From a virus (Duplodnaviria > Heunggongvirae > Uroviricota > Caudoviricetes): a DNA stretch of 51,775 nucleotides. The notes under the pieces were generated by a model. It worked only from the letters and a program-made list of their open reading frames with translations. It did not search any database and had not been told where the DNA came from. How positions within the stretch are numbered: position 1 is the first letter of the stretch; each line of letters starts with the position of its first letter. The DNA lies in the IMG/VR virus record IMGVR_UViG_2687453454_000002; one strand, written 5' to 3'. This document shows, in pieces, positions 1,659 to 16,569 of this stretch. Position numbers and translations under genes: made by a program.

Positions 1659-2738
1659 TTAAGAATCAGCCTGACTCGGGATCAGTTTTTGCCAGATAAC
1701 TGAAACGTATTTTGCCTGGTAACGGGCGTCATCAAGTGCATTATGGCGCTCACCTTCGAATGGAATAGCCGTTCTGGCATCGAAGTCTATGGCTTTCCCC
1801 AGCTCAACGATTGTGCGTACATCGCGATCGTTGTAGTAACGCCACGGGCAGGGGATCCCCTGCCGTTCGTATGAACGGCGCAAAATCGTGTTGTCGAAGT
1901 TGGCTCCATTTCCCCAAACCTGAACAAAAAATTCACCGGAGTTTTCGTCGATAAATTCTCGCAATTGTAACAGTGCATCATCTAACGGGATTTCATCGGT
2001 CATAATGGCAGATTGCGCTTCGCGTGATTGCTTAAGCCACCATTTAATGGTGTCCCGATCAATGACTCCGCCAGCAGTTTCCAGATCGATAGTCTTACTA
2101 AATTCCGGTCCCATATCTCCGGTTTGCGGATCGAAAAATATTGCACCTATTGAGATGATCGGGGCATCAGGATTTTTTCCCATGGTTTCAAGGTCGATCA
2201 TTAGATGGTCACACGTCCTGCTGGTGGATGTGATTTCGTGATGACCGTTCACCTTAATTGGGTGATCTGCCGTCTCGCCAGTTTCATTATCGCTATTGTG
2301 ATGCTGATTGCCGCCAGTGTTCTCCTTGTGTGGATGTTCAGCGCCTTCCATTTCCTCCGGATCATCTTCCTGAACTTCAACCTGATACTCTTCATCGAAT
2401 GTTTCTTGGTATGTTGCGTCGCCCATCACCGCGCCACAATCAGGGCAGTTGCCGCCGCCGGTCTGACCGCAGGCGGTGCAGACTTTTTCCACTTCCTGTT
2501 GCGCTACTGGTTCAGGCTGTTTCGTTTCTGGCTCGTTTTGTAACGCATTTGGACTGTTTTGTTCCGCTTTTTGGTAGTTCCGTTCCGATTCATGCTGGTT
2601 CTGGTTCACAGAATCGCGGGTCTGGAGCCCCTTAACCCATTTCGGATCATTCGGGTCACTAATCCCTTCAACAAATTCACCACGTGATGCAGCAAGCAAC
2701 TTATCGGCGTCAGGCTGGCTGATATTGGCTGCCTGCAT
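1659..2738 (-). CDS. DnaQ-like (DEDDh) 3'-5' exonuclease with N-terminal Zn-ribbon and acidic linker
   Basis: C-terminal half carries Exo I (LMIDLETMG), Exo II ([11 protein letters not shown]) and Exo III (HNALDDARY) motifs; N-terminal CTACG..CPDCG ribbon followed by an acidic low-complexity stretch. Confidence 0.7.
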
Positions 2739-2987
2739 AATTTTGTTTACTTCGTCAGCGGTAACTTTTATCGGCTCTGGTTGTTCTGAATCTTCAGCGG
2801 TATCTACATTTTGCGGTAAGCCCGTGTATGTGCCATTTTTTCGGGCAAAATATTCTTCTTTTGTGATTTCAGTGGCGCCAGCAGCCAGTGCCTTATCCAG
2901 ACCAGAGAGTTTGTTTGCGCGACCGTATTTTTCTCCGTCCTTATCTGCGAAGAGGAAATAGAACGGCCCCTCACGCTCTACAGATGG

Positions 2988-4130
2988 TTAAGCTTCCGGC
3001 GCGGTTTCATTTTTTGGGATATCAGATACCTCAGTTTCCACTGCATCAGTTTGTGTTTCTGATGACTGGAGAACATCAACAGTGCCCAGGTCTGTTTCTT
3101 CATTCTCAAACACGCCCTTTGTCGTCAGGTATTCGCAGATATATTTGTTCAGTGCTACGGGATCTTTGTGAATGTCGATCGGACGCTCACGGACAAGGCC
3201 AAAAATAGTTTGGCGGTCGTAGCGAAGGGCATCAGGCTGTTTGCGCATTGATGCCGAGATACGCTTCCAGTCTTCGCGGTCGTTGTCGATAACTTCTTTT
3301 TTTGCCCAGCGATGGATGCTGCCGTCAATGTTTCCGGCATCCACATCACTAGGCCAGAGAGCGTAGGCCAGTTCGTCATCCAGTGTTTTCCATGTCTGCT
3401 TGTATTCGCGATGAATGGCAGCAATGACCGGGCTGATTTTTCCTGTTGAATTTTCAGTGTACTGTTGATTGGCTCTGGCGCGGGCGAGATCAACAACAGA
3501 CGTGTATTTTCCGGTTTCCTTGCGTTCACCTTCGCGACGTTTTTTCCAGATGCGCATCTCTGCCTGAATTTCGGGCCATTTAGCACCAGGAATACATTTA
3601 TGCTTAACCCACCCAATGGCGTGCAACTTAAGCTCCGGATACATGGCGTTAACTTCTGGCATTTTCATCAACGCTTCAACGATATGTCCGTCGAATGTTG
3701 CCATGTCTTCCTGCAACAATTCCTGTGCGCTAATAACCATATCAACGGTGATGTTTTCACATGTGTCGAACTTAACCATGACAGCGTTCTGTACTTCAGG
3801 GGCCAGCTTGTCAAAAGTGACGTTCATCGGATCGGATTCAGTCTCAACCGGGACAAAAGAAGCAGACTCCTCATCCCAGCGGTTTTCCTGCATATATTCA
3901 GCATCCCATGAATCGAGGGCAGGGCGGGGTATGCCAGGTTTATCCTCGCAGACAATAAATTTATAAGCGCAGTCCTGAGCAGCCGGATAATGTTCCAGGA
4001 ATTGCCAGTGAAATTTTGCTCGAGCACGGCGTTCGTCGCCAGCTTCAATGGCTGTGGCTACAGCCACAGCGCCTTCTTCCCTTGTTGCCAGTTCGTCAGG
4101 AATAGCGGCGCAAATAAAGACTTTACTCAT
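2988..4130 (-). CDS. ydfE: YdfE-like early-region protein of unknown function (full length)
   Basis: ORF-track entry 2988..4166 begins with TTG; the ATG at 4130 has a GAGG Shine-Dalgarno about 10 nt upstream. Position matches ydfE downstream of ydfD in Qin (recalled gene order). Confidence 0.6.
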   Translation of the reverse strand: MSKVFICAAIPDELATREEGAVAVATAIEAGDERRARAKFHWQFLEHYPAAQDCAYKFIVCEDKPGIPRPALDSWDAEYMQENRWDEESASFVPVETESDPMNVTFDKLAPEVQNAVMVKFDTCENITVDMVISAQELLQEDMATFDGHIVEALMKMPEVNAMYPELKLHAIGWVKHKCIPGAKWPEIQAEMRIWKKRREGERKETGKYTSVVDLARARANQQYTENSTGKISPVIAAIHREYKQTWKTLDDELAYALWPSDVDAGNIDGSIHRWAKKEVIDNDREDWKRISASMRKQPDALRYDRQTIFGLVRERPIDIHKDPVALNKYICEYLTTKGVFENEETDLGTVDVLQSSETQTDAVETEVSDIPKNETAPEA

Positions 4131-4826: not shown

Positions 4827-5166
4827 ATTGATAACAGAGGGCGTTGCAGCGGGGTTGTCACTTAAGCGTATGGTCAACCTGACAACCCGGTGTCCTCAAC
4901 GGGGAAGGAATAACCCCGCCATACTTACCGCCGCGCCATTTCGCGGGTTGCCACAACCGGAAGCGCACGGTCGACGAAAATTTAACGACAGGCTATCTAT
5001 GAACCAGCTACCTCGCCGTGCGCTTTCGCGTTATGGTCTGACTTTTCAGGGAAATATCCTTTCAGTAAACTGTCAGTTCCGGATGCGCACCCGTGTCCGG
5101 CGCACGCACTCCACCTCACCCGTGGAGAACTCCTTAATTACTAACCTTAGCTTTGTTGATTAGCTA

Positions 5167-5385
5167 CTAACGCGGGTATGTAATCATTCTGGCAATGCTT
5201 AATGCCGCTGCTTTTTCCAGATTGGTGATATCCTGCTCCAGAGCGGACAGATTTTCAGCCTGCTTAGCCCTGGCTTCATTAGCCCATTTCAGATCCTGCG
5301 CTGCATTAATTTTCTGGCGCATCCACTCATAAAGTTCATCATCGGTATAGTCTGGCGCGATGATGACGGGTTCTCGTTTCTGCAT
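5167..5385 (-). CDS. ydfC: YdfC (72 aa)
   Basis: 72-aa ORF MQKREPVIIAPDYTDDELYEWMRQKINAAQDLKWANEARAKQ... matches K-12 YdfC as recalled; position in the dicB operon. Confidence 0.8.
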   Translation of the reverse strand: MQKREPVIIAPDYTDDELYEWMRQKINAAQDLKWANEARAKQAENLSALEQDITNLEKAAALSIARMITYPR

Positions 5386-5414
5386 ACTGATTCCTCGCGG
5401 TGCTGTTTCGCTTA

Positions 5415-5543
5415 TCAGCCGTTAGATTTTGCCGAACTGGAAAGCGCCTGTTTAAACTCACTGAAGCTGAGAGCTTCTTCGCCTTCGGCAAGGCCTTCGA
5501 AGTATTCTTCGTAAGCCTTTTCCATGATTGTGTCGAAATCCAT
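5415..5543 (-). CDS. ydfB: YdfB (42 aa)
   Basis: Hand translation of the minus strand: MDFDTIMEKAYEEYFEGLAEGEEALSFSEFKQALSSSAKSNG*; GGTGAG-type Shine-Dalgarno upstream; below the ORF-track size cut-off. Confidence 0.75.
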   Translation of the reverse strand: MDFDTIMEKAYEEYFEGLAEGEEALSFSEFKQALSSSAKSNG

Positions 5544-5544
5544 A

Positions 5545-5700
5545 TCACTCACCTGAGTTTCTTTCCAGCCAGCGACGGGCACCATTTTCGGTTTTAAACG
5601 TTTTGCTTTTGGTATACGTCATTGCGGTGAACGTGCCGTCCTGGTTTGGAAACACGCCGTACACCAGAGATTCGTTGTTGCCAAGATCGATAGTATCCAT
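5545..5700 (-). CDS. ydfA: YdfA (51 aa)
   Basis: Internal Met of ORF 5545..5778 gives MDTIDLGNNESLVYGVFPNQDGTFTAMTYTKSKTFKTENGARRWLERNSGE; first gene of the dicB operon. Confidence 0.75.
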   Translation of the reverse strand: MDTIDLGNNESLVYGVFPNQDGTFTAMTYTKSKTFKTENGARRWLERNSGE

Positions 5701-5780
5701 GCTGACCTCATTTCCCCTTAACGCTGGGGTAGCGGAACTGTTTGCTGAGAACACCGTGCGGTGTGTTGATGCAAACAAGA

Positions 5781-5794
5781 TTAGCCATGACTAA
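5781..5794. promoter_or_regulatory. Putative DicA operator in the dicB-operon promoter region
   Basis: Imperfect palindrome TTAGCCATGACTAA related to the operator at 6324..6343; on the minus strand it sits between a TTGACC (-35-like) and TAATCT (-10-like) pair upstream of ydfA. Confidence 0.5.
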
Positions 5795-5866
5795 CATATC
5801 GGTCAAGTGATTTTGTATGCTATAGCTAACATAATTGATGTGGTAAAAGATAACTCATTGATGATG

Positions 5867-6274
5867 TTATCTTTTATTTGTCCGCTGACGGGCTTTTAGT
5901 AATTCTTCAAAGAGTTTATTGAAGTTTTTTACTCGAGCTCGCATTTCGGCGAGCTGGGTATCCTGTTCTGATTCTGGCAGTGCATTAAACAGCTCAAGGA
6001 GCTCTAGTTCTTTGGGGGATAAGGCAACTGGCTTCTCAACAGGTGGTGTTGGTTGCTTGTCTTCATCGCCAAATAGAATCCATGTTGGTGAGCATTGCAA
6101 TACTTTGCTGAGGGCAAAAAGGTTCTTCCCTGTAGGTTCACTATCACCCCGTTCCCATTGTGATACAGACACATGGGAGATTTTCAGGGCTTTAGCAAGA
6201 GACCTTTGGGTGTGTTTGAGGTTTTTCCGACGATACCTGATGCGTTCGCCGATAGTTAAATTTTTTGTTTCCAT
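5867..6274 (-). CDS. dicA: DicA repressor (HTH_XRE, 135 aa)
   Basis: 135-aa ORF METKNLTIGERIRYRRKNLKHTQRSLAKALKISHVSVSQWERG... matches K-12 DicA as recalled. Confidence 0.9.
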   Translation of the reverse strand: METKNLTIGERIRYRRKNLKHTQRSLAKALKISHVSVSQWERGDSEPTGKNLFALSKVLQCSPTWILFGDEDKQPTPPVEKPVALSPKELELLELFNALPESEQDTQLAEMRARVKNFNKLFEELLKARQRTNKR

Positions 6275-6323
6275 AGTTAGCTAATGCTAAATCGTATTGA
6301 CTATGTTTTTGTTAACATCTATC

Positions 6324-6343
6324 TTGTTAGTTATGACTAACAA
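6324..6343. promoter_or_regulatory. Putative DicA/DicC operator in the divergent dicA-dicC intergenic region
   Basis: 20-bp near-perfect inverted repeat TTGTTAGTTA/TGACTAACAA (9 of 10 positions paired), 15 bp upstream of the dicC start. Confidence 0.55.
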
Positions 6344-6357
6344 TAAAGGTGTTTTAA

Positions 6358-6588
6358 ATGCTTAAAACTGACGCTCTTTTGTATTTCGGTTCAAAAACAA
6401 AACTTGCACAAGCAGCAGGTATTCGTTTGGCTTCGCTTTATAGCTGGAAAGGGGATTTAGTTCCCGAAGGTCGCGCGATGCGTCTACAGGAGGCATCTGG
6501 CGGGGAGCTTCAGTATGATCCCAAAGTTTATGATGAATATCGTAAGACGAAGCGGGCGGGGCGGTTGAACAATGAAAATCACTCCTGA
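6358..6588 (+). CDS. dicC: DicC (Cro-like regulator, 76 aa)
   Basis: 76-aa ORF MLKTDALLYFGSKTKLAQAAGIRLASLYSWKGDL... matches K-12 DicC as recalled; divergent from dicA. Confidence 0.9.
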   Translation: MLKTDALLYFGSKTKLAQAAGIRLASLYSWKGDLVPEGRAMRLQEASGGELQYDPKVYDEYRKTKRAGRLNNENHS

Positions 6589-9374: not shown

Positions 9375-10910
9375 TCAGTCGGCAGTGCTACGCGCCAGGG
9401 GGAGCAGTTCGCCGACCCGGTTTATCGGCCAGTCGGCTATGACGTCAAGGACATAGCGGAGGTAGCTTTCTGGCTCCACTCCGTTCAGTTTGCACGTCCC
9501 GATCAGGCTGTACAGCAGCGCTCCCCGCTCTCCTCCATGATCCGAACCGAAGAACAGGTAGTTTTTGCGGCCCAGACTGACCATCCGCAACGCATTTTCA
9601 GCGATGTTATTGTCCGCCTCAGCCCAGCCATCATCTGCATAGTACGTCAGCGCCGGCCACTGGTTCAGGGCGTATGCGAACGCTTTCGCCAGTTCTGAGT
9701 GTCGCGACAGGGTTTTCATCTTTTCACGCAGCCAGCTTTCCAGGGATTTCAGCAGCGGTTTCGTTTTCAACTGACGTTCGGCAAGGCGCTGCTCCGCCGT
9801 CATTCCCCTTATCTCTGCCTCGATGGCGTACAGTTCGCCGATCCGTTTCAGCGCTTCCTCCGTCAGGGCTGACGGGGTGCGAACGTGCACATCGTGGATT
9901 TTACGGCGGGCGTGAGCCCAACAGGCGGCTTCCGTTATCCGGCCATCCCGGTACAGCTCGTTGAACCCGGCGTATGCATCCGCCTGCAGTACACCACTGA
10001 ACCCCGCAAGATGGGTCTGCGGATGGATGCCTTTTCTGTCCGGGCTGTAAGCGAACCACACCGCCGGCGCCAGCGTTGACCCGGCGTTACGGTCGTCACG
10101 AACGTAGGTCCATAACCGCCCGGTCTTCGTTTTCTTATTGCCTGGCAACAGCACCGGGACAGGCGTGTCATCAGCATGGAGCTTACCGTCAGTCAGCACA
10201 TAGTCCTGAAGCGCTTCTTCCAGCGGTGACAGTAGCCGGCAGCATGCATCCACCCAGCCCGACAGCAGTGAACGACTCAGCTCCACGCCCTGGCGGCCGT
10301 ACATTTCAGACTGGCGGTACAGCGGGGTGTGCTCTGCATACTTTGAGATCAGCACGCGGGCCAGCAGCCCCGGTCCTGCGATACCCCGCTCGATGGGCCG
10401 TGAAGGCGCGGGGGCCTGCACGATGGCATCGCACTGAGTACAGGCATGCTTTTCACGTACAGTCCGGATAACCCGGAAGGCGCTGCGCATCAGCTCCAGC
10501 TGTTCGGCGGCATCCTCACCCAGATAGCTCAGCGAGCCTCCACATTCCGGGCAGCATGACGCTGCCGGCAGCAGCCGTTTTTCATCGCGGGGGAGTGATT
10601 CGGGGAACGGTTTGCGGGTGCGGGTTTGACGCAGCGGGCGCTGCACGGCCGGGTCGTCAACCCGACCGGTAAGGGTATCACTTTCTTTCTGAAGTGCCTT
10701 CAGGTCAGCTTCCATCTGTGCGATACGACGGGAGACTTTTTCCGAGCGGCTGCCGAAGTTCATCCGGCGCAGCTTATCCAGCTGTGCCTGCAGATGGTCT
10801 ATTTCGCGTTCACGCTCGTTCAGCTTTTCCTGCAGGGCACGGTTCAGCGCCTCCTGTTCGGCAAGGAGACGTTTCAGTGCATTGATATCGTCAGGAAGTG
10901 AGCTGCTCAT
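9375..10910 (-). CDS. tnpC: IS66-family transposase TnpC (511 aa)
   Basis: 511-aa ORF with the leucine-zipper-like N-terminus and overall architecture typical of IS66 TnpC. Confidence 0.85.
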
Positions 10911-10958
10911 ACCGGGTATATTACCAGGCTCATTCAGCGTCGACCAGGATAAAGAGGC

Positions 10959-11306
10959 TTACAACATAGTCAGGGACGTAAGCAGTCTTTTAGGCTGCCG
11001 CCAGTCGATACCTTCCAGCAGCATCGCCAGCTGTGCCGGTGTGAGGAACACTTTGCCATCCCGGGCTGACGGCCAGGCGAAGCGGCCGCGCTCCAGCCGT
11101 TTGGTCAGCAGACACAGTCCATCGCCGGTAGACCAGAGGAGCTTTACCTGACTGCCATTACGCCCACGGAAGATAAAAACGTGACCTGACATCGGATCGT
11201 CTTTCAGCGTCGTCTGCACCTTTGCCGCCAGGCCGTTGAAGCCGTTTCTCATATCGGTGATGCCAGCGACCAGCCAGATCTTTGTCCCTGATGGTAATGG
11301 GATCAA
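10959..11306 (-). CDS. tnpB: IS66-family TnpB (115 aa)
   Basis: 115-aa ORF directly upstream of tnpC, overlapping tnpA by 4 bp; IS66 Orf2 size. Confidence 0.8.
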   Translation of the reverse strand: MIPLPSGTKIWLVAGITDMRNGFNGLAAKVQTTLKDDPMSGHVFIFRGRNGSQVKLLWSTGDGLCLLTKRLERGRFAWPSARDGKVFLTPAQLAMLLEGIDWRQPKRLLTSLTML

Positions 11307-11707
11307 CGTTTGAGCTCCCGTATCAGCAGGTTCAGGATATTTTCGCTGATGGCACCATTCAGACGGAGTGATCCGTGCCGGAACGTCACTTCACAGCTGA
11401 TATTGAGTGATTCAGGTGTCGCAGCAGCTACAGGTTGTGACCGGGGGGAGGTTGTAGGGACAACATCTTCGGCATCAAGTGTTATCGGGAGCAGCTCAGG
11501 CACGTTGTTTTCTGTTGTTGAAGGAGGACGTAGTTTTCCTTCGCGCCAGTACTGGCGCCACTTGAACAGCAAATTATCGTTGATCCCATGCTCACGAGCG
11601 AGTTGCGCTACGGAGATCTCTGGTCGATGCGAGAGTTCAACCATTTTGATTTTGAACTCAACGGGATAATTAGGGCTTTTTTTACGCACTGCGGTTAATG
11701 ATTTCAT
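11303..11707 (-). CDS. tnpA: IS66-family TnpA (134 aa, HTH)
   Basis: 134-aa ORF with HTH-like VAQLAREHGINDNLLFKWRQ; first gene of the IS66 operon. Confidence 0.8.
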   Translation of the reverse strand: MKSLTAVRKKSPNYPVEFKIKMVELSHRPEISVAQLAREHGINDNLLFKWRQYWREGKLRPPSTTENNVPELLPITLDAEDVVPTTSPRSQPVAAATPESLNISCEVTFRHGSLRLNGAISENILNLLIRELKR

Positions 11708-11928
11708 GGATTGCGTCCACCATATTTGGTGTCCACTATTCTCTCAGGAATTTCAGGATCTGCCAGACGGTGCTGAGACGACGCTTACAGTTTTGAAGAG
11801 CGGGATGAACTATTAATGGACTATGGTGAGTTACGCGGTGGAAGTGCTGCTGATGTCGAATCCTAGCGTGATGACTATGAAGCGGGAAAAACTCCGGTCG
11901 AAGCATATTGTGATGAGTGGGGCGATGA

Positions 11929-12216: not shown

Positions 12217-12470
12217 ATTAATGGATTAACTATGTCGGTTAAACGACCAGCCAACTGAAAAAGCGGAAACCTGATTACAGGTTGCCAGATAAGGCAATGA
12301 GCTACCTGGCGCGGAACGGACTGATAAGTATGGGGAATGTTTTACGATGAACCTTTAGACTAAAGAGTTTGTAACGCTATGTAAGTGATTTTTTCTGGTT
12401 TAGATATTTATATGTCCGGCCAAATTGAGGTGTGTTTAAATGTAATTGCACATTGATTGTAGGAGGAATA

Positions 12471-12650
12471 ATGAAAAACGCATTGCAGTTTTTGTTTGTT
12501 GCGTTCTGGTTGTTCGCATCATGTATGCCCATCATCTTCACAGCAAGGTATATGGAAAAAGTTGATGTTTTGATATTAATATTTGGATATATAAATGCCC
12601 TTTTTTTAGGGGTGTTCATGGCGGTCATGTGCATTGAATACTGGCGGTAA
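12471..12650 (+). CDS. Small hydrophobic membrane protein (59 aa), function unknown
   Basis: ATG preceded by a perfect AGGAGG Shine-Dalgarno (12461..12466); product MKNALQFLFVAFWLFASCMPIIF...LGVFMAVMCIEYWR predicts two transmembrane helices. Confidence 0.5.
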   Translation: MKNALQFLFVAFWLFASCMPIIFTARYMEKVDVLILIFGYINALFLGVFMAVMCIEYWR

Positions 12651-12984
12651 ATACAGCGAACTCCATTGGTTTAGTTGGATATTTACTGTGCTGGACAAAA
12701 ACGGTTTGCGGGGAAATCTTAGTTAAGTAGAATGACTGCGGGTGCTTGAGGCTATCTGCCTCGGGCATGGACACCAACGGCAGATAGAGAAAAGCCCCAG
12801 TTAACATTACGCGTCCTGCAAGACGCTTAACATTAATCTGAGGCCAATTTCATGCTAGACACATGTAGGTTAGCCTCTTACGTGCCGAAAGGCACGGAGA
12901 AGCAGGCTATTGTTAACACCAAGCTGTAATGTCCCCTTTGAACCATTCTAAAATGTCCCCAGACAATTCTCTGGGGGATTTTTC

Positions 12985-14298
12985 ATGATCAAAGAGACTG
13001 TTACGATGAGTCATAAGGAACTCCACCGACTTCAGATTATTCAGGAACAAGCTGCGGCACGCATTGGCATTTCTATTCGGCAGGTTAAACGTCTGGTGCA
13101 ACGGTATAGAAATGAAGGGCCTTCTGGTCTGGTTTCCCACCGACGTGGAAAGCGTCCTAATAATTCCTTTTCTACTGAATTCAGAGCAACAGTAATTTCA
13201 CTCCTCAAAGGCCGTTACGCTGATTTTGGACCTACGTTTGCGTGCGAAAAATTGCGCGAGATACACGGTTTATCTTTATCCGTTGAAACTCTCAGAAAGT
13301 GGATGATAGAAGAGGGGTTATGGCGTGAACGCCGTCGTAAAATTGCCCGTATATATCAACGCCGCATGCGACGACCATCTTACGGTGAACTGATCCAGAT
13401 TGATGGCTCACCTCATGACTGGTTTGAAAATCGAGGCCCCAGATGTACACTGATCGTTTTCATTGATGATGCCACCAGTGCGTTGATGGCGTTGCGTTTT
13501 GTGCCTGCTGAAACAACCCGGGCTTACATGGAAACCCTCCGGGGTTACCTTAATGATCATGGCGTACCGCTCGCTCTCTACTCTGATAGACACAGTATAT
13601 TCAGGGTAAATAACCCAGAGCGGGAAGGTGAGCTGACCCAGTTCACTCGTGCGATAAAGACACTGGGCATCGAGCCAATCCATGCCAACAGCCCGCAGGC
13701 AAAAGGGCGGGTAGAGCGCGCCAATCAGACACTACAGGACAGGCTGGTCAAAGAAATGCGGCTTCAGAATATCAGTGATATTGAAACAGCAAATGCATGG
13801 TTGCCGACCTTTATTGAAGCCTATAACAACCGGTTCGCTACGTCGCCTCGTACTACTGATAATGCTCATCTTGATGTGCACCATTCTGAAGAGGAACTGG
13901 GTTATATCTTCAGCCTACAGGCGAAGCGCGTTCTGTCTAAAAATCTCACTTTCCAGTACAAAAGCAGTGCGTTTCAGGTACGCAGTGAGGGCCGGGGATA
14001 TCGACTTAGGCATTCGGTTGTTACTGTATGCGAGAACTTTGACGGTGAAATTAACGTTCTGTATGACGGGAAAGCGCTGGGCTGGGAAAAGTATGTTGAT
14101 GGCCCGGAGCCTATACCACTGGATGATGAAAAGAGTGTCCATGAACGAGTGGATAATGCCCGTATTGATTTACGCTCAAAATACTATGTTAAACCTAAAG
14201 CTGACCATCCCTGGCTTACGCGCCGAACGCAAAGTCATCAGCAAGTTAAGCCCCCGAAGTTACCTAAAAAGAAGCCTGATCCCGATAAAAAAGATTGA
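12985..14298 (+). CDS. DDE transposase with rve integrase core (IS481/ISNCY-like), 437 aa
   Basis: N-terminal HTH, then DDE-type core motifs (IQIDGSPHDW, LYSDRHSIF, QAKGRVERANQTLQDRL); no IstB-like partner; terminal inverted repeats not resolved. Confidence 0.75.
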   Translation: MIKETVTMSHKELHRLQIIQEQAAARIGISIRQVKRLVQRYRNEGPSGLVSHRRGKRPNNSFSTEFRATVISLLKGRYADFGPTFACEKLREIHGLSLSVETLRKWMIEEGLWRERRRKIARIYQRRMRRPSYGELIQIDGSPHDWFENRGPRCTLIVFIDDATSALMALRFVPAETTRAYMETLRGYLNDHGVPLALYSDRHSIFRVNNPEREGELTQFTRAIKTLGIEPIHANSPQAKGRVERANQTLQDRLVKEMRLQNISDIETANAWLPTFIEAYNNRFATSPRTTDNAHLDVHHSEEELGYIFSLQAKRVLSKNLTFQYKSSAFQVRSEGRGYRLRHSVVTVCENFDGEINVLYDGKALGWEKYVDGPEPIPLDDEKSVHERVDNARIDLRSKYYVKPKADHPWLTRRTQSHQQVKPPKLPKKKPDPDKKD

Positions 14299-14734
14299 AA
14301 CCAAGATCGATTCGGTTGAGTGCATATCCATTCATAGGGTAGATTCTTAAGTCGCGTTTCTGGTGTTCATTTTCGGGTGGTTTGTTACTTGTTTTACCGG
14401 GGATATGCCAGAAACGCGCTGAGTCAGTCTGGGCGGTGCGCGTAATGAGGCGTTATGGTAAATAGCCTATGCTAATGTCCGCTAAGAGCAAGAAGCGGAA
14501 GTTGGCAGTTTTGTGGACTGTCCCCACAAAAGTGACTACAGAAATAGTTGCAATTCATAATTGATCATGGGTTGTCAGTTAAACTCGTGGCGATTTAAAT
14601 AGACTAATTGGGAGTGCGTCCATTACTTATATCTTGTAATGTTAACTATCAGAAATGATACAAAGATAATATGTCTTTAAAGAAAAGGCTGATGGCGAAA
14701 AGTGGCCCGATGAGGGCCACAATACGGCTGTCAC

Positions 14735-15067
14735 TTAGACGTAAATATCAATGGTGCCAGCGGTATTTGTATCGTCTTTTTTCTCTTCTTTTTTATCAGG
14801 CTGAACTGTCGCGTCTTCATTCTTTTTCTCTGCCTGCTGCCTTAACAACTGCTCCAGTTGAGCCCAGAGGCTTTCAATTTGCTTCTGTACCAATGCAGCC
14901 ATTTCTTTTTTCTGCTGTGTCGTCATCCCCTCTTCCGATGAGATTTTCCCAAGCTTTTCAGTCAGCACCTGAATTTGTCTTGTGATTTTGGCTATTTCTG
15001 ATGTTCCTTCCGGGGCGGAGTTGTTTGAAATAACGGTTGAGGTATTTCCCTGAATTGTGACAGACAT
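14735..15067 (-). CDS. flxA: FlxA (110 aa)
   Basis: 110-aa ORF MSVTIQGNTSTVISNNSAPEGTSEIAKITRQIQVLTEKL... matches K-12 FlxA as recalled. Confidence 0.85.
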   Translation of the reverse strand: MSVTIQGNTSTVISNNSAPEGTSEIAKITRQIQVLTEKLGKISSEEGMTTQQKKEMAALVQKQIESLWAQLEQLLRQQAEKKNEDATVQPDKKEEKKDDTNTAGTIDIYV

Positions 15068-15269
15068 AGATTTCTCCTTTTAAAAAAGCACTATCGGCAT
15101 GCACAAAAAAATCTTTAATCGTATTTCTTGTGTCATTAATTGTTTGATGTTCAGATTGTTTTCCTCGCGGGCTGGCGCGCCTCAGAAAGTAAAGCTTGTT
15201 GACAGGGGTAAACGTTCGGCAATAATTTTCTGCCGCATGCGGGTGTTGCATAAAACGTGTTACGTTCCT

Positions 15270-15575
15270 TTATCGACAGGTCAGGTCACCGCTCACCCGC
15301 CGACGAGAAAGCAACACTGACATGCTAAAGCAAAAAATAGATGAATAAGTTGAGTTGTGCATATGTAGCCTGACCGTCACAAAGTATATGGTGTCTGTAC
15401 CAGTAAGATGATGGCCGGACTCTTTAAAAACGAGCTGACCTGCACAATACAGGATGGACTTAGCAATGGCTGCTCCTGGCACAAAGCGGACAGTGATCAC
15501 CGTTCTTACGACTACTTTCTGACTTCCTTCGTGACTTGCCCTAAGCATGTTGTAGTGCGATACTTGTAATGACAT
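15270..15575 (-). CDS. ydfV: YdfV-like protein (101 aa)
   Basis: 101-aa ORF between flxA and relB, the position of ydfV in Qin; name assigned from size and position only. Confidence 0.5.
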   Translation of the reverse strand: MSLQVSHYNMLRASHEGSQKVVVRTVITVRFVPGAAIAKSILYCAGQLVFKESGHHLTGTDTIYFVTVRLHMHNSTYSSIFCFSMSVLLSRRRVSGDLTCR

Positions 15576-15588
15576 TTGTAATTACAAG
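15563..15588. promoter_or_regulatory. relBE operator (relO) inverted repeat
   Basis: CTTGTAATGACATTTGTAATTACAAG palindrome immediately upstream of the relB Shine-Dalgarno and start. Confidence 0.7.
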
Positions 15589-15599
15589 AGGTGTAAGAC

Positions 15600-15839
15600 A
15601 TGGGTAGCATTAACCTGCGTATTGACGATGAACTTAAAGCGCGTTCTTACGCCGCGCTTGAAAAAATGGGTGTAACTCCTTCTGAAGCGCTTCGTCTCAT
15701 GCTCGAGTATATCGCTGACAATGAACGCTTGCCGTTCAAACAGACACTCCTGAGTGATGAAGATGCTGAACTTGTGGAGATAGTGAAAGAACGGCTTCGT
15801 AATCCTAAGCCAGTACGTGTGACGCTGGATGAACTCTGA
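15600..15839 (+). CDS. relB: RelB antitoxin (79 aa)
   Basis: 79-aa ORF MGSINLRIDDELKARSYAALEKMGVTPSEALRLMLEYIADNERLPF... matches K-12 RelB as recalled. Confidence 0.9.
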   Translation: MGSINLRIDDELKARSYAALEKMGVTPSEALRLMLEYIADNERLPFKQTLLSDEDAELVEIVKERLRNPKPVRVTLDEL

Positions 15840-16126
15840 TGGCGTATTTTCTGGATTTTGACGAGCGGGCACTAAAGGAATGGCGAAAGCTGGGCTCGAC
15901 GGTACGTGAACAGTTGAAAAAGAAGCTGGTTGAAGTACTTGAGTCACCCCGGATTGAAGCAAACAAGCTCCGTGGTATGCCTGATTGTTACAAGATTAAG
16001 CTCCGGTCTTCAGGCTATCGCCTTGTATACCAGGTTATAGACGAGAAAGTTGTCGTTTTCGTGATTTCTGTTGGGAAAAGAGAACGCTCGGAAGTATATA
16101 GCGAGGCGGTCAAACGCATTCTCTGA
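15839..16126 (+). CDS. relE: RelE mRNA interferase toxin (95 aa)
   Basis: 95-aa ORF MAYFLDFDERALKEWRKLGSTVREQLKKKLVEVLESPRIEANKLRGMPDCYKIKLRSSGYRLVYQV... matches K-12 RelE; start overlaps the relB stop. Confidence 0.9.
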   Translation: MAYFLDFDERALKEWRKLGSTVREQLKKKLVEVLESPRIEANKLRGMPDCYKIKLRSSGYRLVYQVIDEKVVVFVISVGKRERSEVYSEAVKRIL

Positions 16127-16197
16127 ACCAAAGCATGACATCTCTGTTTCGCACCGAAGGTGACACTTCTGCTTTGCGTTGACAGGAGAAGCAGGCT

Positions 16198-16353
16198 ATG
16201 AAGCAGCAAAAGGCGATGTTAATCGCCCTGATCGTCATCTGTTTAACCGTCATAGTGACGGCACTGGTAACGAGGAAAGACCTCTGCGAGGTACGAATCC
16301 GAACCGGCCAGACGGAGGTCGCTGTCTTCACAGCTTACGAACCTGAGGAGTAA
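16198..16353 (+). CDS. hokD: HokD (RelF) Hok-family membrane toxin (51 aa)
   Basis: Hand translation: MKQQKAMLIALIVICLTVIVTALVTRKDLCEVRIRTGQTEVAVFTAYEPEE*; below the ORF-track size cut-off. Confidence 0.85.
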   Translation: MKQQKAMLIALIVICLTVIVTALVTRKDLCEVRIRTGQTEVAVFTAYEPEE

Positions 16354-16422
16354 GAGACCCGGCGGGGGAGAAATCCCTCGCCACCTCTGATGTGGCAGGC
16401 ATCCTCAACGCACCCGCACTTA

Positions 16423-16447
16423 ACCCGCTTCGGCGGGTTTTTGTTTT
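16423..16447 (+). terminator. Intrinsic terminator after relBE-hokD
   Basis: GC stem CCCGC-TTCG-GCGGG followed by a T-tract (TTTTTGTTTTT). Confidence 0.6.
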
Positions 16448-16569
16448 TATTTTCAACGCGTTTGAAGTTCTGGACGGTGCCGGAATAGAATCAAAAATAC
16501 TTAAGTAGCGCGCAGGGATAAGAGGGATGGTCCCTTAAAGGGGAGAGCTAATTATCCGGAAGGATTCTG

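What the first reader, a model, noticed from the sequence alone, without database searches (positions are those of the whole stretch)
12431..14734. Unresolved third mobile element: rve-type transposase preceded by a structured non-coding stretch and a small membrane ORF
The 437-aa DDE transposase (12985..14298) has no obvious terminal inverted repeats or target duplication. Upstream is a 59-aa two-helix membrane protein gene with a perfect AGGAGG ribosome-binding site (12471..12650). Between them (about 12700..12900) are stable stem-loops, including CTATCTGCC...GGCAGATAG and CGTGCC-GAAA-GGCACG with a GNRA-type loop; a further 11-bp stem CGCGTTTCTGG/CCAGAAACGCG lies downstream at 14344..14409. 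This could be an IS with passenger or regulatory RNA structure, or a small toxin-like membrane gene captured between IS elements. It is the least explained part of the window.
Basis: partly seen in the sequence, partly recalled or inferred. Interest (0 to 1): 0.5.

Follow-up and report, generated by a model that had tools for sequence, protein, structure and literature searches.

The report
relBE-carrying transposon inserted in hok/sok
The "unresolved" transposase is the left end of a 3.3-kb mobile element that carries the classic E. coli relBE toxin-antitoxin genes and has landed exactly on the start of a hok toxin gene, which explains both the orphan structured RNA upstream and the long-known relB-relE-hokD operon.

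Summary
The features exist, but the element was delimited wrongly. The structured stretch (12740-12910) is the 5' leader of a prophage hok/sok locus (Rfam RF01794, 104 bits), not part of the IS. The transposase (IS1202 family, ISEsa1-like) does have ends. IRL starts at 12911 and IRR ends at 16184. A 15-bp target duplication (GGAGAAGCAGGCTAT) flanks this 3,274-bp unit, which holds tnp, a cer-like XerCD site, flxA, ydfV and relBE. Intact relatives show the insertion split hok between its Shine-Dalgarno sequence and ATG, and the orphaned hokD ORF sits at 16198. The same arms with at least eight different cargoes occur in many Enterobacterales, each with its own 13-16-bp duplication. About 28 of 40 independent left junctions lie in the SD-ATG of different hok genes. 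The window copy has a 9-aa deletion in its DNA-binding domain. The 59-aa ORF is prophage backbone, confined to Escherichia/Shigella and unverified. The cargo bay is bounded by conserved palindromes. The same palindromes bracket defence-gene cassettes in phage genomes.

The parts
12471..12650 (+). 59-aa two-helix ORF with AGGAGG RBS. Prophage backbone, not part of the transposon or of hok/sok. Its status as a gene is unverified.
   Evidence: ORF seen. Homologues occur only in Escherichia/Shigella at 74-100% identity, with no Pfam family. It is present next to the intact hok locus in M217. Only 2 substitutions in 60 copies, so no coding test is possible.
12706..12733 (+). Inferred hok promoter (-35 TTGCGG at 12706-12711, -10 TAGAAT at 12728-12733).
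   Evidence: Read directly from the sequence. It lies just upstream of the Rfam model start at 12740. The consensus scan did not report it because only 3 of 6 bases match in the -35, so this is an inference.
12740..12910 (+). Orphan 5' leader of a hok/sok locus: 5' tac element, sok-target hairpins and a truncated mok-like ORF (12852-12929). It ends at the 'AT' of the hok start codon.
   Evidence: Rfam RF01794, 104.1 bits against a gathering score of 59. 96% identical to L002 2605-3252, which runs straight into hokD. Homology of thousands of E. coli hok loci stops at window 12910.
12896..12910 (.). Left copy of the 15-bp target-site duplication GGAGAAGCAGGCTAT (hok SD to AT of ATG).
   Evidence: the repeat finder family D10, 100% identical to 16185-16199. 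A single copy is present in the intact locus.
12911..12984 (+). Left end (IRL) of the transposon: TGTTAACACCAAGCTGTAATGTCCCC..., two AATGTCCCC repeats (12928-36, 12952-60), and a terminator-like hairpin (12956-12977) abutting the tnp ATG.
   Evidence: Identical IRL abuts 40 different flanks. It resembles published ISTde1-subgroup ends. Hairpin found.
12985..14298 (+). IS1202-family (ISEsa1-like) DDE transposase, 437 aa. An in-frame 9-aa deletion lies in the N-terminal HTH relative to intact 446-aa copies. The last 49 aa are what K-12 annotates as ydfW.
   Evidence: NCBIfam transpos_ISNCY_2, 456 bits. Alignment. PGAP labels and the ydfW overlap.
14310..14463 (+). cer-type XerCD site. Core GGTGCGCGTAA (14435-45) - TGAGGCG - TTATGGTAAAT (14453-63).
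   Evidence: Conserved in all relatives, more strongly than the tnp DNA. Aligns over about 190 bp with a 4.3-kb ColE1-type plasmid, with a compensatory change in the stem. Each arm matches published Enterobacterial xrs at 10 of 11 positions.
14477..14500 (.). hpL palindrome (GTCCGCT-N10-AGCGGAa), left boundary of the cargo module.
   Evidence: All elements diverge in content just after this site.
14735..15067 (-). flxA, the cargo gene of this copy's palindrome-bounded module.
   Evidence: Pfam FlxA 2.3e-14. Replaced by other genes in sister elements.
15468..15491 (.). hpR palindrome (GgCtGCT-CCTGGCACAA-AGCGGAC), right boundary of the cargo module.
   Evidence: The conserved right arm starts here (99% identical in plasmid copies).
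15600..16126 (+). relB (15600-15839) and relE (15839-16126), type II toxin-antitoxin. The constant terminal passenger of the transposon.
   Evidence: NCBIfam RelB/DinJ 133 bits, RelE/StbE 54.7 bits. Present next to IRR in every complete element of this clade.
16135..16184 (-). Right end (IRR): ...GGTGACACTTCTGCTTTGCGTTGACA, with two (A/G)TGTCA repeats mirroring IRL.
   Evidence: In L004 homology to the window ends exactly at 16184 against unrelated DNA.
16185..16199 (.). Right copy of the target-site duplication. It supplies the SD and ATG of hokD.
16198..16353 (+). hokD (relF) ORF, the other half of the split hok locus. Its 3' fbi element (about 16403-16416) and terminator (16422-16439) follow.
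   Evidence: L002 3237-3500 matches window 16184-16448 at 98%. NCBIfam Hok family. fbi read, terminator.

Best explanation
Window 12911-16184 is one 3,274-bp cargo-carrying transposon of the IS1202 family (ISTde1 subgroup, ISEsa1-like).

Its order is: IRL, DDE transposase, a cer-type XerCD site, a palindrome-bounded cargo module (here flxA), the relBE toxin-antitoxin operon, IRR.

It inserted by DDE transposition with a 15-bp staggered cut into the translation-initiation region of a prophage hok/sok locus. The duplication runs from the hok Shine-Dalgarno sequence to the AT of the ATG.

That event left the hok promoter, the leader and the sok-target structures as an orphan at 12706-12910. It also placed relBE directly upstream of an intact SD-ATG-hokD, creating the relB-relE-hokD (relBEF) transcription unit.

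Shown here:
- the boundaries, the duplication and the empty site;
- mobility of sister elements as whole units;
- strong enrichment of insertions at the hok SD-ATG.

Inferred:
- the enrichment reflects target choice by the transposase (a GGCA-type sequence 16-17 bp from IRL, possibly plus the adjacent hairpin) rather than selection alone;
- relBE and the cer-like site serve to stabilise the replicons that carry the element;
- the window copy, with 9 aa missing from its HTH domain, can no longer move on its own;
- the sok promoter is severed from sok.

The 59-aa ORF is unrelated prophage backbone.
For: Split hok locus and empty site:
- Rfam sok/hok leader at 12740-12911.
- The intact M217 locus aligns to window 12264-12910 and, overlapping by 15-16 bp, to 16184-16448.
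- Exact 15-bp repeat.

Ends:
- 22 of 30 positions match between the ends, with none of 200,000 random pairs reaching this.
- The ends start TGT and have a conserved TGTC block near position 20. The duplication is 15 bp. All three fit the published ISTde1-subgroup signature, and ISEsa1 is listed in that subgroup.

Transposase: transpos_ISNCY_2, 456 bits. DDE motif with Q at +7.

Mobility as a unit:
- The same IRL-tnp-cer arm and the same relBE-IRR arm (99% identical) flank different cargo in Enterobacter, Citrobacter, Kluyvera, Leclercia, Klebsiella and other genera. Element sizes run from 3,274 to 7,694 bp.
- Each site has its own perfect duplication (GGAGAAGAAGGCCAT, GGAGAAGAAGCCATG, GATATGCTGACAAA, GATGTTAGCCATG, GGAGATGTATGGGTCC, CCAGGCGGTACAGTAT, TACCAAAACAAGCCCC).
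- The 4,600-bp and the 6,092/6,093-bp elements each occur at two or three different sites.
- Simple 1,448-bp relatives in Hahella give 16-bp duplications.

Target preference:
- About 28 of 40 distinct left-flank clusters are the hok SD-ATG. They come from different hok genes, with offsets of about 1-3 bp, and one is in reverse orientation.
- A second, related IS sits in the same site in L024, and L158 has a tandem IRR-15 bp-IRL junction.
- Non-hok sites often carry GGCA or GCAA 16-17 nt from IRL, as hok does.

Literature:
- relBEF is co-transcribed (PMC3598666).
- relBE was already described as 'integrated' into the hokD locus (PMC6379469).
- ISfinder's ISEsa1 is 1,609 bp with no duplication detected (PMC10132070). 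That is what is expected if it was delimited at the cargo boundary, since hpL sits at element position about 1594-1617.
Against: - No transposition was observed. All evidence is comparative.
- For the flxA-type element itself I found only one clean insertion site. Other flxA-type copies lack a proper duplication (L204, L233), which is consistent with recombination between copies.
- The hok enrichment could be inflated by selection (insertions that separate hok from its promoter are tolerated) and by sampling of related plasmids and prophages.
- Several 'clusters' differ only by 1-2 bp and come from metagenome contigs, so some may be sequencing errors rather than independent events.
- The sok promoter could not be located, so the fate of sok is unknown.
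- The function of the XerCD site rests on sequence similarity only.
Confidence: 0.85

Rival explanations
1. The mobile element is only the 1.6-kb segment from 12911 to about 14500 (ISEsa1 as registered: 1,609 bp, no target duplication). On this reading flxA-ydfV-relBE is ordinary Qin prophage DNA, and the 15-bp repeat at 16185 is a coincidence or a recombination scar.
For: ISfinder data as quoted in PMC10132070. PGAP annotates only the transposase. Similarity between copies does drop at about 14500.
Against: - The drop in similarity is a cargo swap. It resumes at 15472 with 99% identity and ends exactly at 16184 in every copy.
- Perfect 13-16-bp duplications always flank IRL and the far end, never position 14500.
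- Homology to intact hok loci resumes exactly at 16185.
- No IRR-like sequence lies near 14500. The motif there is in direct, not inverted, orientation.
Confidence: 0.04
2. The clustering of insertions at the hok SD-ATG is produced by selection and by homologous recombination between hok loci, not by target choice of the transposase.
For: - hok loci are repeated, and recombination between copies is evident (L233, L207).
- Insertions elsewhere in hok/sok that kept hok translatable but removed sok could be lethal and would be unseen.
- About 12 of 40 junction clusters are not in hok.
Against: - The duplications differ in sequence and offset and match the local hok sequence on both sides. Recombination cannot generate that.
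- Selection for hok inactivation would allow hits anywhere in about 400 bp, yet all fall within a few bp.
- A different related IS also sits in the same site (L024).
- Non-hok sites share a GGCA/GCAA motif at the same distance.
- The sister subgroup ISAba32 is known to be site-specific for XerCD sites.
Confidence: 0.2
3. The 59-aa membrane ORF and the structured RNA form a small toxin/antisense (type I TA-like) pair of their own, captured between two IS elements.
For: - The ORF has a strong RBS and two hydrophobic helices.
- It lies next to an RNA from an antitoxin family.
- An IS66-family element lies upstream at 9375-11707.
Against: - The RNA is the sense leader of hok. It starts 90 bp downstream of the ORF's stop, on the same strand, behind its own inferred promoter.
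- The same ORF-leader arrangement continues into hokD in IS-free loci.
- The ORF has no homologues outside Escherichia/Shigella, no family, and many truncated variants.
- There is no antisense overlap with the ORF.
Confidence: 0.03

Closest known systems
ISEsa1 and the ISTde1 subgroup of the IS1202 family (ISNCY in ISfinder)
   Same: Transposase family and motifs, TGT termini, a conserved TGTC block near position 20, and 15-17-bp target duplications.
   Different: Registered members are 1.3-2.0 kb with a single ORF, and ISEsa1 is listed as 1,609 bp with no duplication. Here the functional unit is 3.3-7.7 kb. It carries a XerCD site, a swappable cargo module and relBE, and it prefers hok start regions. 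No targeting had been reported for this subgroup.
ISAba32/ISAjo2 subgroup of the IS1202 family, and ISKpn21-type 'transporter IS'
   Same: Same family. Oriented, site-specific insertion next to a short structured site. Some members carry a passenger gene.
   Different: Those elements insert 5-6 bp from XerC/XerD sites and make 5-6-bp duplications. This element carries a XerCD site internally, targets the hok SD-ATG and makes 15-16-bp duplications.
Tn3-family transposons with integral toxin-antitoxin pairs (Lima-Mendez et al. 2020, PMC7157771)
   Same: A type II TA module is a constant part of the transposon rather than random cargo. In this clade it is relBE, and a GNAT/RHH pair occupies the same place in the Scandinavium relatives.
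   Different: Different transposase family and mechanism. Here the TA module sits at the extreme right end, reading outward across IRR into the target gene.
IS-disrupted chromosomal hok loci of E. coli K-12 (hokA, hokC/gef, hokE) and the 'rearranged' hokD/relF locus
   Same: hok loci interrupted by insertion sequences. The K-12 hokD lacks its leader and is co-transcribed with relBE (Pedersen & Gerdes 1999 from memory).
   Different: IS150 and IS186 lie downstream of the hok ORF and disrupt fbi. Here the insertion is at the SD-ATG and recurs in many hok genes. This window still retains the severed leader that K-12 has lost through a later deletion (from ydfX into the tnp gene).
ColE1 cer and other plasmid XerCD multimer-resolution sites
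   Same: An 11-7-11 core that matches published XerC and XerD arms, with about 130 bp of upstream accessory sequence homologous to a small ColE1-type plasmid.
   Different: It is located inside a transposon. Function was not tested. The 7-nt spacer differs from cer (8 nt) and dif (6 nt); those two values are from memory.

Membership tests
IS1202 family (ISNCY), ISTde1 subgroup | DDE transposase of 400-500 aa with an N-terminal HTH that passes the family HMM. | tested here: met
   437 aa (446 aa intact). NCBIfam transpos_ISNCY_2 scores 456 bits against a cut-off of 250. HTH_32/29/28 in Pfam.
IS1202 family (ISNCY), ISTde1 subgroup | DDE triad with Q seven residues after the E (instead of K/R). 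| tested here: met
   IQIDGSPHD..., YSDRHSIF..., GRVERANQTLQ are seen in the alignment. The signature is as described in the preprint.
IS1202 family (ISNCY), ISTde1 subgroup | Imperfect terminal inverted repeats starting 5'-TGT, with a second conserved block around position 20. | tested here: met
   TGTTAAC...AATGTCC and TGTCAAC...AGTGTCA, with 22 of 30 positions identical. Similar to ISVbsp4 ends.
IS1202 family (ISNCY), ISTde1 subgroup | Target-site duplication of 15-17 bp. | tested here: met
   15 bp in the window. 13-16 bp at other sites. 16 bp in Hahella and Scandinavium relatives.
IS1202 family (ISNCY), ISTde1 subgroup | Simple IS of 1.3-2.0 kb with a single ORF. | tested here: not met
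   3,274 bp with 4-5 further genes, and sister elements reach 7.7 kb. It is therefore a cargo-carrying derivative (transporter IS or transposon), not a plain IS.
IS1202 family (ISNCY), ISTde1 subgroup | Demonstrable transposition. | not testable with these tools
   Only comparative evidence is available (the same element at several sites with fresh duplications). The window copy carries a 9-aa HTH deletion.
[quoted passage not shown] | hok mRNA leader with the conserved fold (tac, sokT hairpins). | tested here: met
   RF01794 at 104.1 bits against a gathering score of 59, covering the full model 1-157.
[quoted passage not shown] | hok ORF immediately downstream of the leader, with the 3' fbi element in the same transcript. 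| tested here: not met
   The leader ends at 12910. hokD and fbi are at 16198-16416, separated by the 3,274-bp insert. The locus is split and is not a functional unit.
[quoted passage not shown] | Antisense sok gene with its own promoter. | tested here: inconclusive
   No promoter was called on either strand in the intact or the split locus. From its position, the sok promoter probably spans the insertion point. This is an inference.
XerCD recombination site (cer/dif type) | 11-bp XerC arm, 6-8-bp spacer and 11-bp XerD arm matching consensus. | tested here: met
   GGTGCGCGTAA-TGAGGCG-TTATGGTAAAT at 14435-14463. Each arm matches GGTGCGCATAA / TTATGTTAAAT at 10 of 11 positions, as listed in PMC10132070 Table 8.
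XerCD recombination site (cer/dif type) | Upstream accessory sequences, and recombination by XerCD with PepA/ArgR. | tested here: inconclusive
   About 190 bp aligns with a small ColE1-type plasmid, but that plasmid's site is not annotated. The ARG-box likeness is from memory. Recombination cannot be tested here.
relBE type II toxin-antitoxin | RelB/DinJ antitoxin followed by a RelE/StbE toxin, overlapping genes. | tested here: met
   NF008412 at 133 bits (cut-off 96) and TIGR02385 at 54.7 bits (cut-off 27.9). A 1-bp overlap at 15839.

The most novel reading that the evidence does not exclude
The element may be a dedicated, site-specific 'stability transposon'. Its transposase would recognise the translation-initiation region of hok genes and convert type I hok/sok loci into relBE-driven hok operons. 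The K-12 relBEF operon would then be one fossil of a recurrent process. In addition, its cargo bay would be one slot of a so far undescribed gene-cassette system bounded by conserved palindromes (TGTCCGCT-N10-AGCGGACA, in L and R types). The same system would organise anti-phage defence hotspots of P2-like and lambdoid phages and let cassettes move between phages, plasmids and transposons.
Probability: 0.3. Interest if true: 0.85.

Novelty: new variant of a known kind. Interest (0 to 1): 0.6.

Why it matters
- relBE of E. coli K-12 is the founding member of a major toxin-antitoxin family. Its odd co-transcription with hokD (relF) has been treated as a given. This analysis gives it a concrete origin: the vehicle, its ends and the empty site.
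- It shows that the registered ISEsa1 is probably only the left arm of a larger transposon. That would explain why no target duplication was ever found for it.
- It extends site-specific targeting in the IS1202 family from XerCD sites to a second kind of small, structured target.
- It identifies a transposon that carries two plasmid-stability functions (a TA module and a multimer-resolution site) together with swappable metal-resistance and other cargo on IncHI2 and IncF plasmids.
- It suggests that two K-12 'genes' are annotation by-products. ydfW is the transposase C-terminus, and ydfV straddles a cargo boundary.

Tried and rejected
- The repeat finder with 7-nt seeds did not report the terminal inverted repeats, because the exact runs are too short. 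They were found from the empty-site alignment instead.
- Consensus promoter scans found neither the hok nor the sok promoter. The state of sok is therefore left open.
- The coding test for the 59-aa ORF failed for lack of variation: 2 substitutions in 60 copies. The protein search found only close Escherichia/Shigella copies, and tblastn found 3 phages.
- Rfam has no family for the hp palindromes or for the post-tnp segment.
- A sigma-54 promoter, integron attC, REP and XerCD identity for the hp palindromes were each considered by eye and did not fit.
- No IS1202-like transposase and no XerCD site lies near the hp sites in phage contigs. No target duplications surround hp modules. They are therefore neither pieces of this transposon nor classical transposons.
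- Literature searches for the hp motif or for P2 hotspot boundaries found nothing. Odegrip 2006 is not held, and Nilsson et al. 2004, which may describe these boundaries, could not be read.
- The idea that the hok promoter drives the transposase was dropped. IRL carries a terminator-like hairpin abutting the tnp ATG.
Full report
**What is in the sequence**

The window is an Escherichia coli Qin-type lambdoid prophage. The finding region is 100% identical to many E. coli chromosomes, where RefSeq annotates 'ISNCY family transposase', ydfW, flxA, ydfV, relB, relE and hokD in that order.

The 437-aa ORF (12985-14298), the 59-aa ORF (12471-12650, AGGAGG at 12461-12466) and the quoted stem-loops are all present. 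The downstream 11-bp stem has its arms at 14353-14363 and 14408-14418, slightly to the right of the coordinates given.

**The structured stretch is a hok/sok leader**

An Rfam scan places the sok/hok-leader family RF01794 at 12740-12911 on the + strand. The score is 104 bits (gathering score 59, E = 8.7e-24) over the full model.

A distant BLAST of 12660-12990 against 5,426 complete E. coli genomes hits hok loci in almost all of them. Homology always stops at window 12910, usually with an annotated hok gene beginning there.

In strain M217 the same prophage region is uninterrupted:
- M217 2605-3252 aligns with window 12264-12910 at 96%.
- M217 3237-3500 aligns with window 16184-16448 at 98%.
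- The 15 bases GGAGAAGCAGGCTAT occur once in M217 and twice in the window, at 12896-12910 and 16185-16199.

The hok locus has therefore been split between its Shine-Dalgarno sequence and its ATG by a 3,274-bp insert. The leader stays at 12740-12910, behind an inferred promoter (TTGCGG-16 nt-TAGAAT, 12706-12733). The ORF is hokD at 16198-16353, still followed by its 3' fold-back element and terminator.

**The insert is a transposon with proper ends**

The insert begins TGTTAACACCAAGCTGTAATGTCCCCTTTG. Read from the other end, it begins TGTCAACGCAAAGCAGAAGTGTCACCTTCG. 22 of the first 30 positions agree, and none of 200,000 random pairs from the window reaches that. Each end carries two (A/G)TGTC(C/A) repeats 24-25 bp apart.

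The transposase:
- scores 456 bits against NCBIfam transpos_ISNCY_2, cut-off 250;
- has the DDE residues with Q at +7 described for the IS1202 family;
- is labelled 'IS1202-like element ISEsa1 family' by PGAP in sister copies.

The two family surveys describe the ISTde1 subgroup as having TGT termini, a conserved block near position 20 and 15-17-bp duplications. ISEsa1 is listed with that subgroup. All three features are met here.

**It moves as a whole unit**

A scan of one genome per species, plus metagenome and viral contig scans with the IRL sequence, gave 169 copies of the left end.

In Enterobacter, Citrobacter, Kluyvera, Leclercia, Klebsiella, Pseudocitrobacter, Huaxiibacter, Superficieibacter and others, two arms are constant:
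- the left arm (IRL, tnp and about 200 bp, window 12911-14504);
- the right arm (window 15472-16184: relBE and IRR, 99% identical).

These arms bracket different contents, and complete elements measure 3,274 to 7,694 bp. The cargo sets include:
- flxA;
- cytochrome b plus a CDF transporter, with or without secondary IS;
- the ncr nickel-resistance genes;
- DMT-like membrane proteins plus a LysR regulator;
- a hydrolase plus a LysR regulator;
- a kinase-like protein.

Each insertion has its own perfect duplication abutting IRL and IRR. The 4,600-bp element is found at three sites, and the 6,092/6,093-bp element at three. On the E. coli plasmid in L004, similarity to the window ends exactly at 16184 against unrelated DNA.

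More distant relatives behave the same way:
- 1,448-bp plain IS copies in Hahella make 16-bp duplications.
- 4.3-kb and 8-kb Scandinavium elements make 16-bp duplications. They carry a GNAT/RHH toxin-antitoxin pair where this clade has relBE.

ISfinder's ISEsa1 is listed as 1,609 bp with 'no TSD detected'. Position 1609 falls inside the left cargo boundary (element position 1594-1617). I infer that the registered IS is only the left arm.

**Target preference**

Clustering the 60 nt to the left of IRL gave 40 distinct junctions.
- 22 carry the hok leader signature by a strict pattern.
- Six more are hok start regions in rearranged or reversed form, giving about 28 of 40.

These junctions involve clearly different hok genes. 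The flanks are 75-90% identical or less, while the transposon arms are 96-100% identical. The duplications differ in sequence and in offset by about 1-3 bp. One insertion is in the opposite orientation. One hok site holds a second, related IS directly after the first (L024), and another shows a tandem IRR-15 bp-IRL junction (L158).

Recombination between hok loci cannot create matching duplications on both sides. Selection for hok inactivation would not confine hits to a few base pairs. The 12-14 non-hok sites often have GGCA or GCAA 16-17 nt from IRL, as every hok site does.

I therefore favour real target choice, as known for the XerCD-site-targeting sister subgroup. This step is inferred, not shown.

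**What the rest of the finding region is**

- The post-tnp segment (14299-14504) is more conserved among relatives than the tnp DNA itself.
- It contains GGTGCGCGTAA-TGAGGCG-TTATGGTAAAT at 14435-14463. Each arm matches published Enterobacterial XerC and XerD arms at 10 of 11 positions. In the Scandinavium relatives the core is almost that of ColE1 cer (from memory).
The stem shows a compensatory T-A to A-T change.
- I read this segment as a cer-type multimer-resolution site with its accessory region. Function was not tested.
- The transposase in the window lacks nine residues (QESINRHIT) of the N-terminal HTH relative to the 446-aa form. Among the complete elements recovered, 22 loci have this 3,274-bp size and 24 have the 3,301-bp size.
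- K-12 has lost everything from ydfX to the middle of tnp. This removes IRL and the hok leader and leaves the last 49 codons annotated as ydfW.

**The 59-aa ORF**

It lies in prophage backbone that is also present next to the intact hok locus. It has homologues only in Escherichia/Shigella, no family, and many truncated forms. It shows too little variation for a coding test. Nothing links it to the transposon or to the RNA.

**How it most likely works**

The DDE transposase binds the repeated TGTC motifs at both ends and inserts the whole unit with a 15-16-bp stagger.

At a hok site the duplication regenerates the SD and ATG on the right. hok is then read from relBE transcripts that run out across IRR. 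This matches the experimentally shown relBEF co-transcription.

The hok promoter, the leader and the sok target are stranded on the left, in front of a terminator-like hairpin in IRL.

relBE (addiction) and the cer-like site (multimer resolution) would stabilise plasmids that carry the element. This function is inferred from the known roles of those modules.

**Relation to what is known**

Prior work already said:
- that relBE was 'integrated' into the hokD locus and came from plasmids;
- that the K-12 hokD locus is rearranged (Pedersen & Gerdes 1999, from memory);
- that other K-12 hok loci carry IS elements downstream of the ORF;
- that toxin-antitoxin pairs are integral to Tn3-family transposons.

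I found no paper that names the IS1202-family element as the vehicle, defines its ends, or reports hok start regions as a transposon target. The library does not hold every journal.

**An unexpected lead**

The cargo module is bounded by two conserved palindromes:
- hpL: TGTCCGCT-AAGAGCGAGA-AGCGGACA (window 14477-14500);
- hpR: GTCCGCT-YCTGGCACAA-AGCGGAC (window 15468-15491).

The loops fall into the same two classes. In 46 of 120 loci the sites are arranged L...R around 0.5-3.5-kb modules, and adjacent modules are joined R-18 nt-L.

These loci are mostly P2-like phages (directly after the tail-fibre-assembly gene) and lambdoid phages, in one case (L247) about 300 bp from a hok/sok locus.

Module genes include known defence genes: DRT RT_UG17, PDC-S33, DarG, PDC-S35 (TIR domain) and PD-T7-1.

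No IS1202-like transposase, XerCD site or target duplication accompanies them.

They may be recombination sites of a cassette system. Alternatively they may be short 'linker' homologies used by phage recombinases. I could not decide between these, and an older P2 paper that I could not read may already describe them.

**Verdict**

The region is the junction between an orphaned hok/sok leader and the left part of a relBE-carrying IS1202-family transposon. The anatomy is firmly supported by comparative evidence. The targeting and the stability functions are well-motivated inferences. I rate it a new variant of a known kind, of moderate-to-high interest to toxin-antitoxin and mobile-element specialists.

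Noticed in passing
window 14477-14500 and 15468-15491; L235-L354 (e.g. L257 3094-3683, L313 1361-4434, L242 2763-2829): The conserved palindromes TGTCCGCT-N10-AGCGGACA come in two loop classes (L: TGAGCGARR; R: YYTGGCACAR). They bracket the transposon's cargo. They also bracket 0.5-3.5-kb modules, often in arrays joined R-18 nt-L, in P2-like and lambdoid phage contigs. Many of those modules hold known anti-phage defence genes (DRT, DarG, PD-T7-1, PDC-S33/S35). This looks like a cassette system; the mechanism is unknown.
   Followed up: partly
window 14310-14463: A cer-type XerCD site lies inside the transposon: core GGTGCGCGTAA-TGAGGCG-TTATGGTAAAT plus about 130 bp of accessory sequence. It is homologous to a site on a 4.3-kb ColE1-type plasmid (L355).
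   Followed up: partly
window 15270-15575 (-): ydfV straddles the hpR cargo boundary. Only its first ~33 codons lie in the conserved right arm, antisense to the relBE upstream region. In elements with other cargo the ORF continues into unrelated sequence (74-101 aa variants). It is probably not a real conserved gene.
   Followed up: partly
window 14149-14298; L005 3501-3685: K-12 'ydfW' is the last 49 codons of the IS1202-family transposase. K-12 carries a deletion from ydfX into tnp that removed IRL, most of tnp and the hok leader.
   Followed up: yes
L006 6763-8001; L012 (element position 5142-6380); L091: IS110-family ISEsa2 copies are inserted immediately next to hpL or hpR in several elements, which suggests that this IS targets the hp palindromes. 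In Table 8 of PMC10132070, one ISKpn65 target is listed with the 'XerD arm' TTATGTCCGCT, which is the hp motif.
   Followed up: no
L040 10275-11020; L026 (same region): Scandinavium relatives (about 80% aa identity) carry a GNAT toxin plus a DUF1778-like RHH antitoxin next to IRR, where the E. coli clade has relBE. A toxin-antitoxin pair at the right end seems to be a design feature of the group. The family assignments are by eye only.
   Followed up: no
L158 (about 11670-11755); L024 8527-8560; L029 6929-9843: L158 has a head-to-tail IRR-15 bp-IRL junction. In L024 a second, related IS starts 10 bp after the first element's IRR in the same hok site. L029 (Hahella) has tandem copies. These are possible footprints of repeated targeting or of circle-junction-type intermediates.
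   Followed up: no
window 9375-11707: An IS66-family element (ISEc22-like; tnpA, tnpB and tnpC on the minus strand) is inserted in the prophage about 1.2 kb upstream of the hok leader. In strain W5-6 the same copy is annotated as frameshifted.
   Followed up: no
window 16194-16223 (minus strand): By position, the sok promoter of the original locus may lie on the hokD side of the insertion (TTAACA-18 nt-TAGCCT on the minus strand, overlapping the hok ATG). It would then fire leftwards into IRR and relE as an antisense transcript. This is purely a reading of the sequence, and no tool called it.
   Followed up: no
L003 2494-2520: A solitary hp-type palindrome (GTCCGCT-CCTCGCTCAA-AGCGGAC) lies about 300 bp upstream of the hok leader, at the edge of a truncated prophage. 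In L247 a complete hp module sits in the equivalent place, next to an intact hok/sok locus.
   Followed up: no
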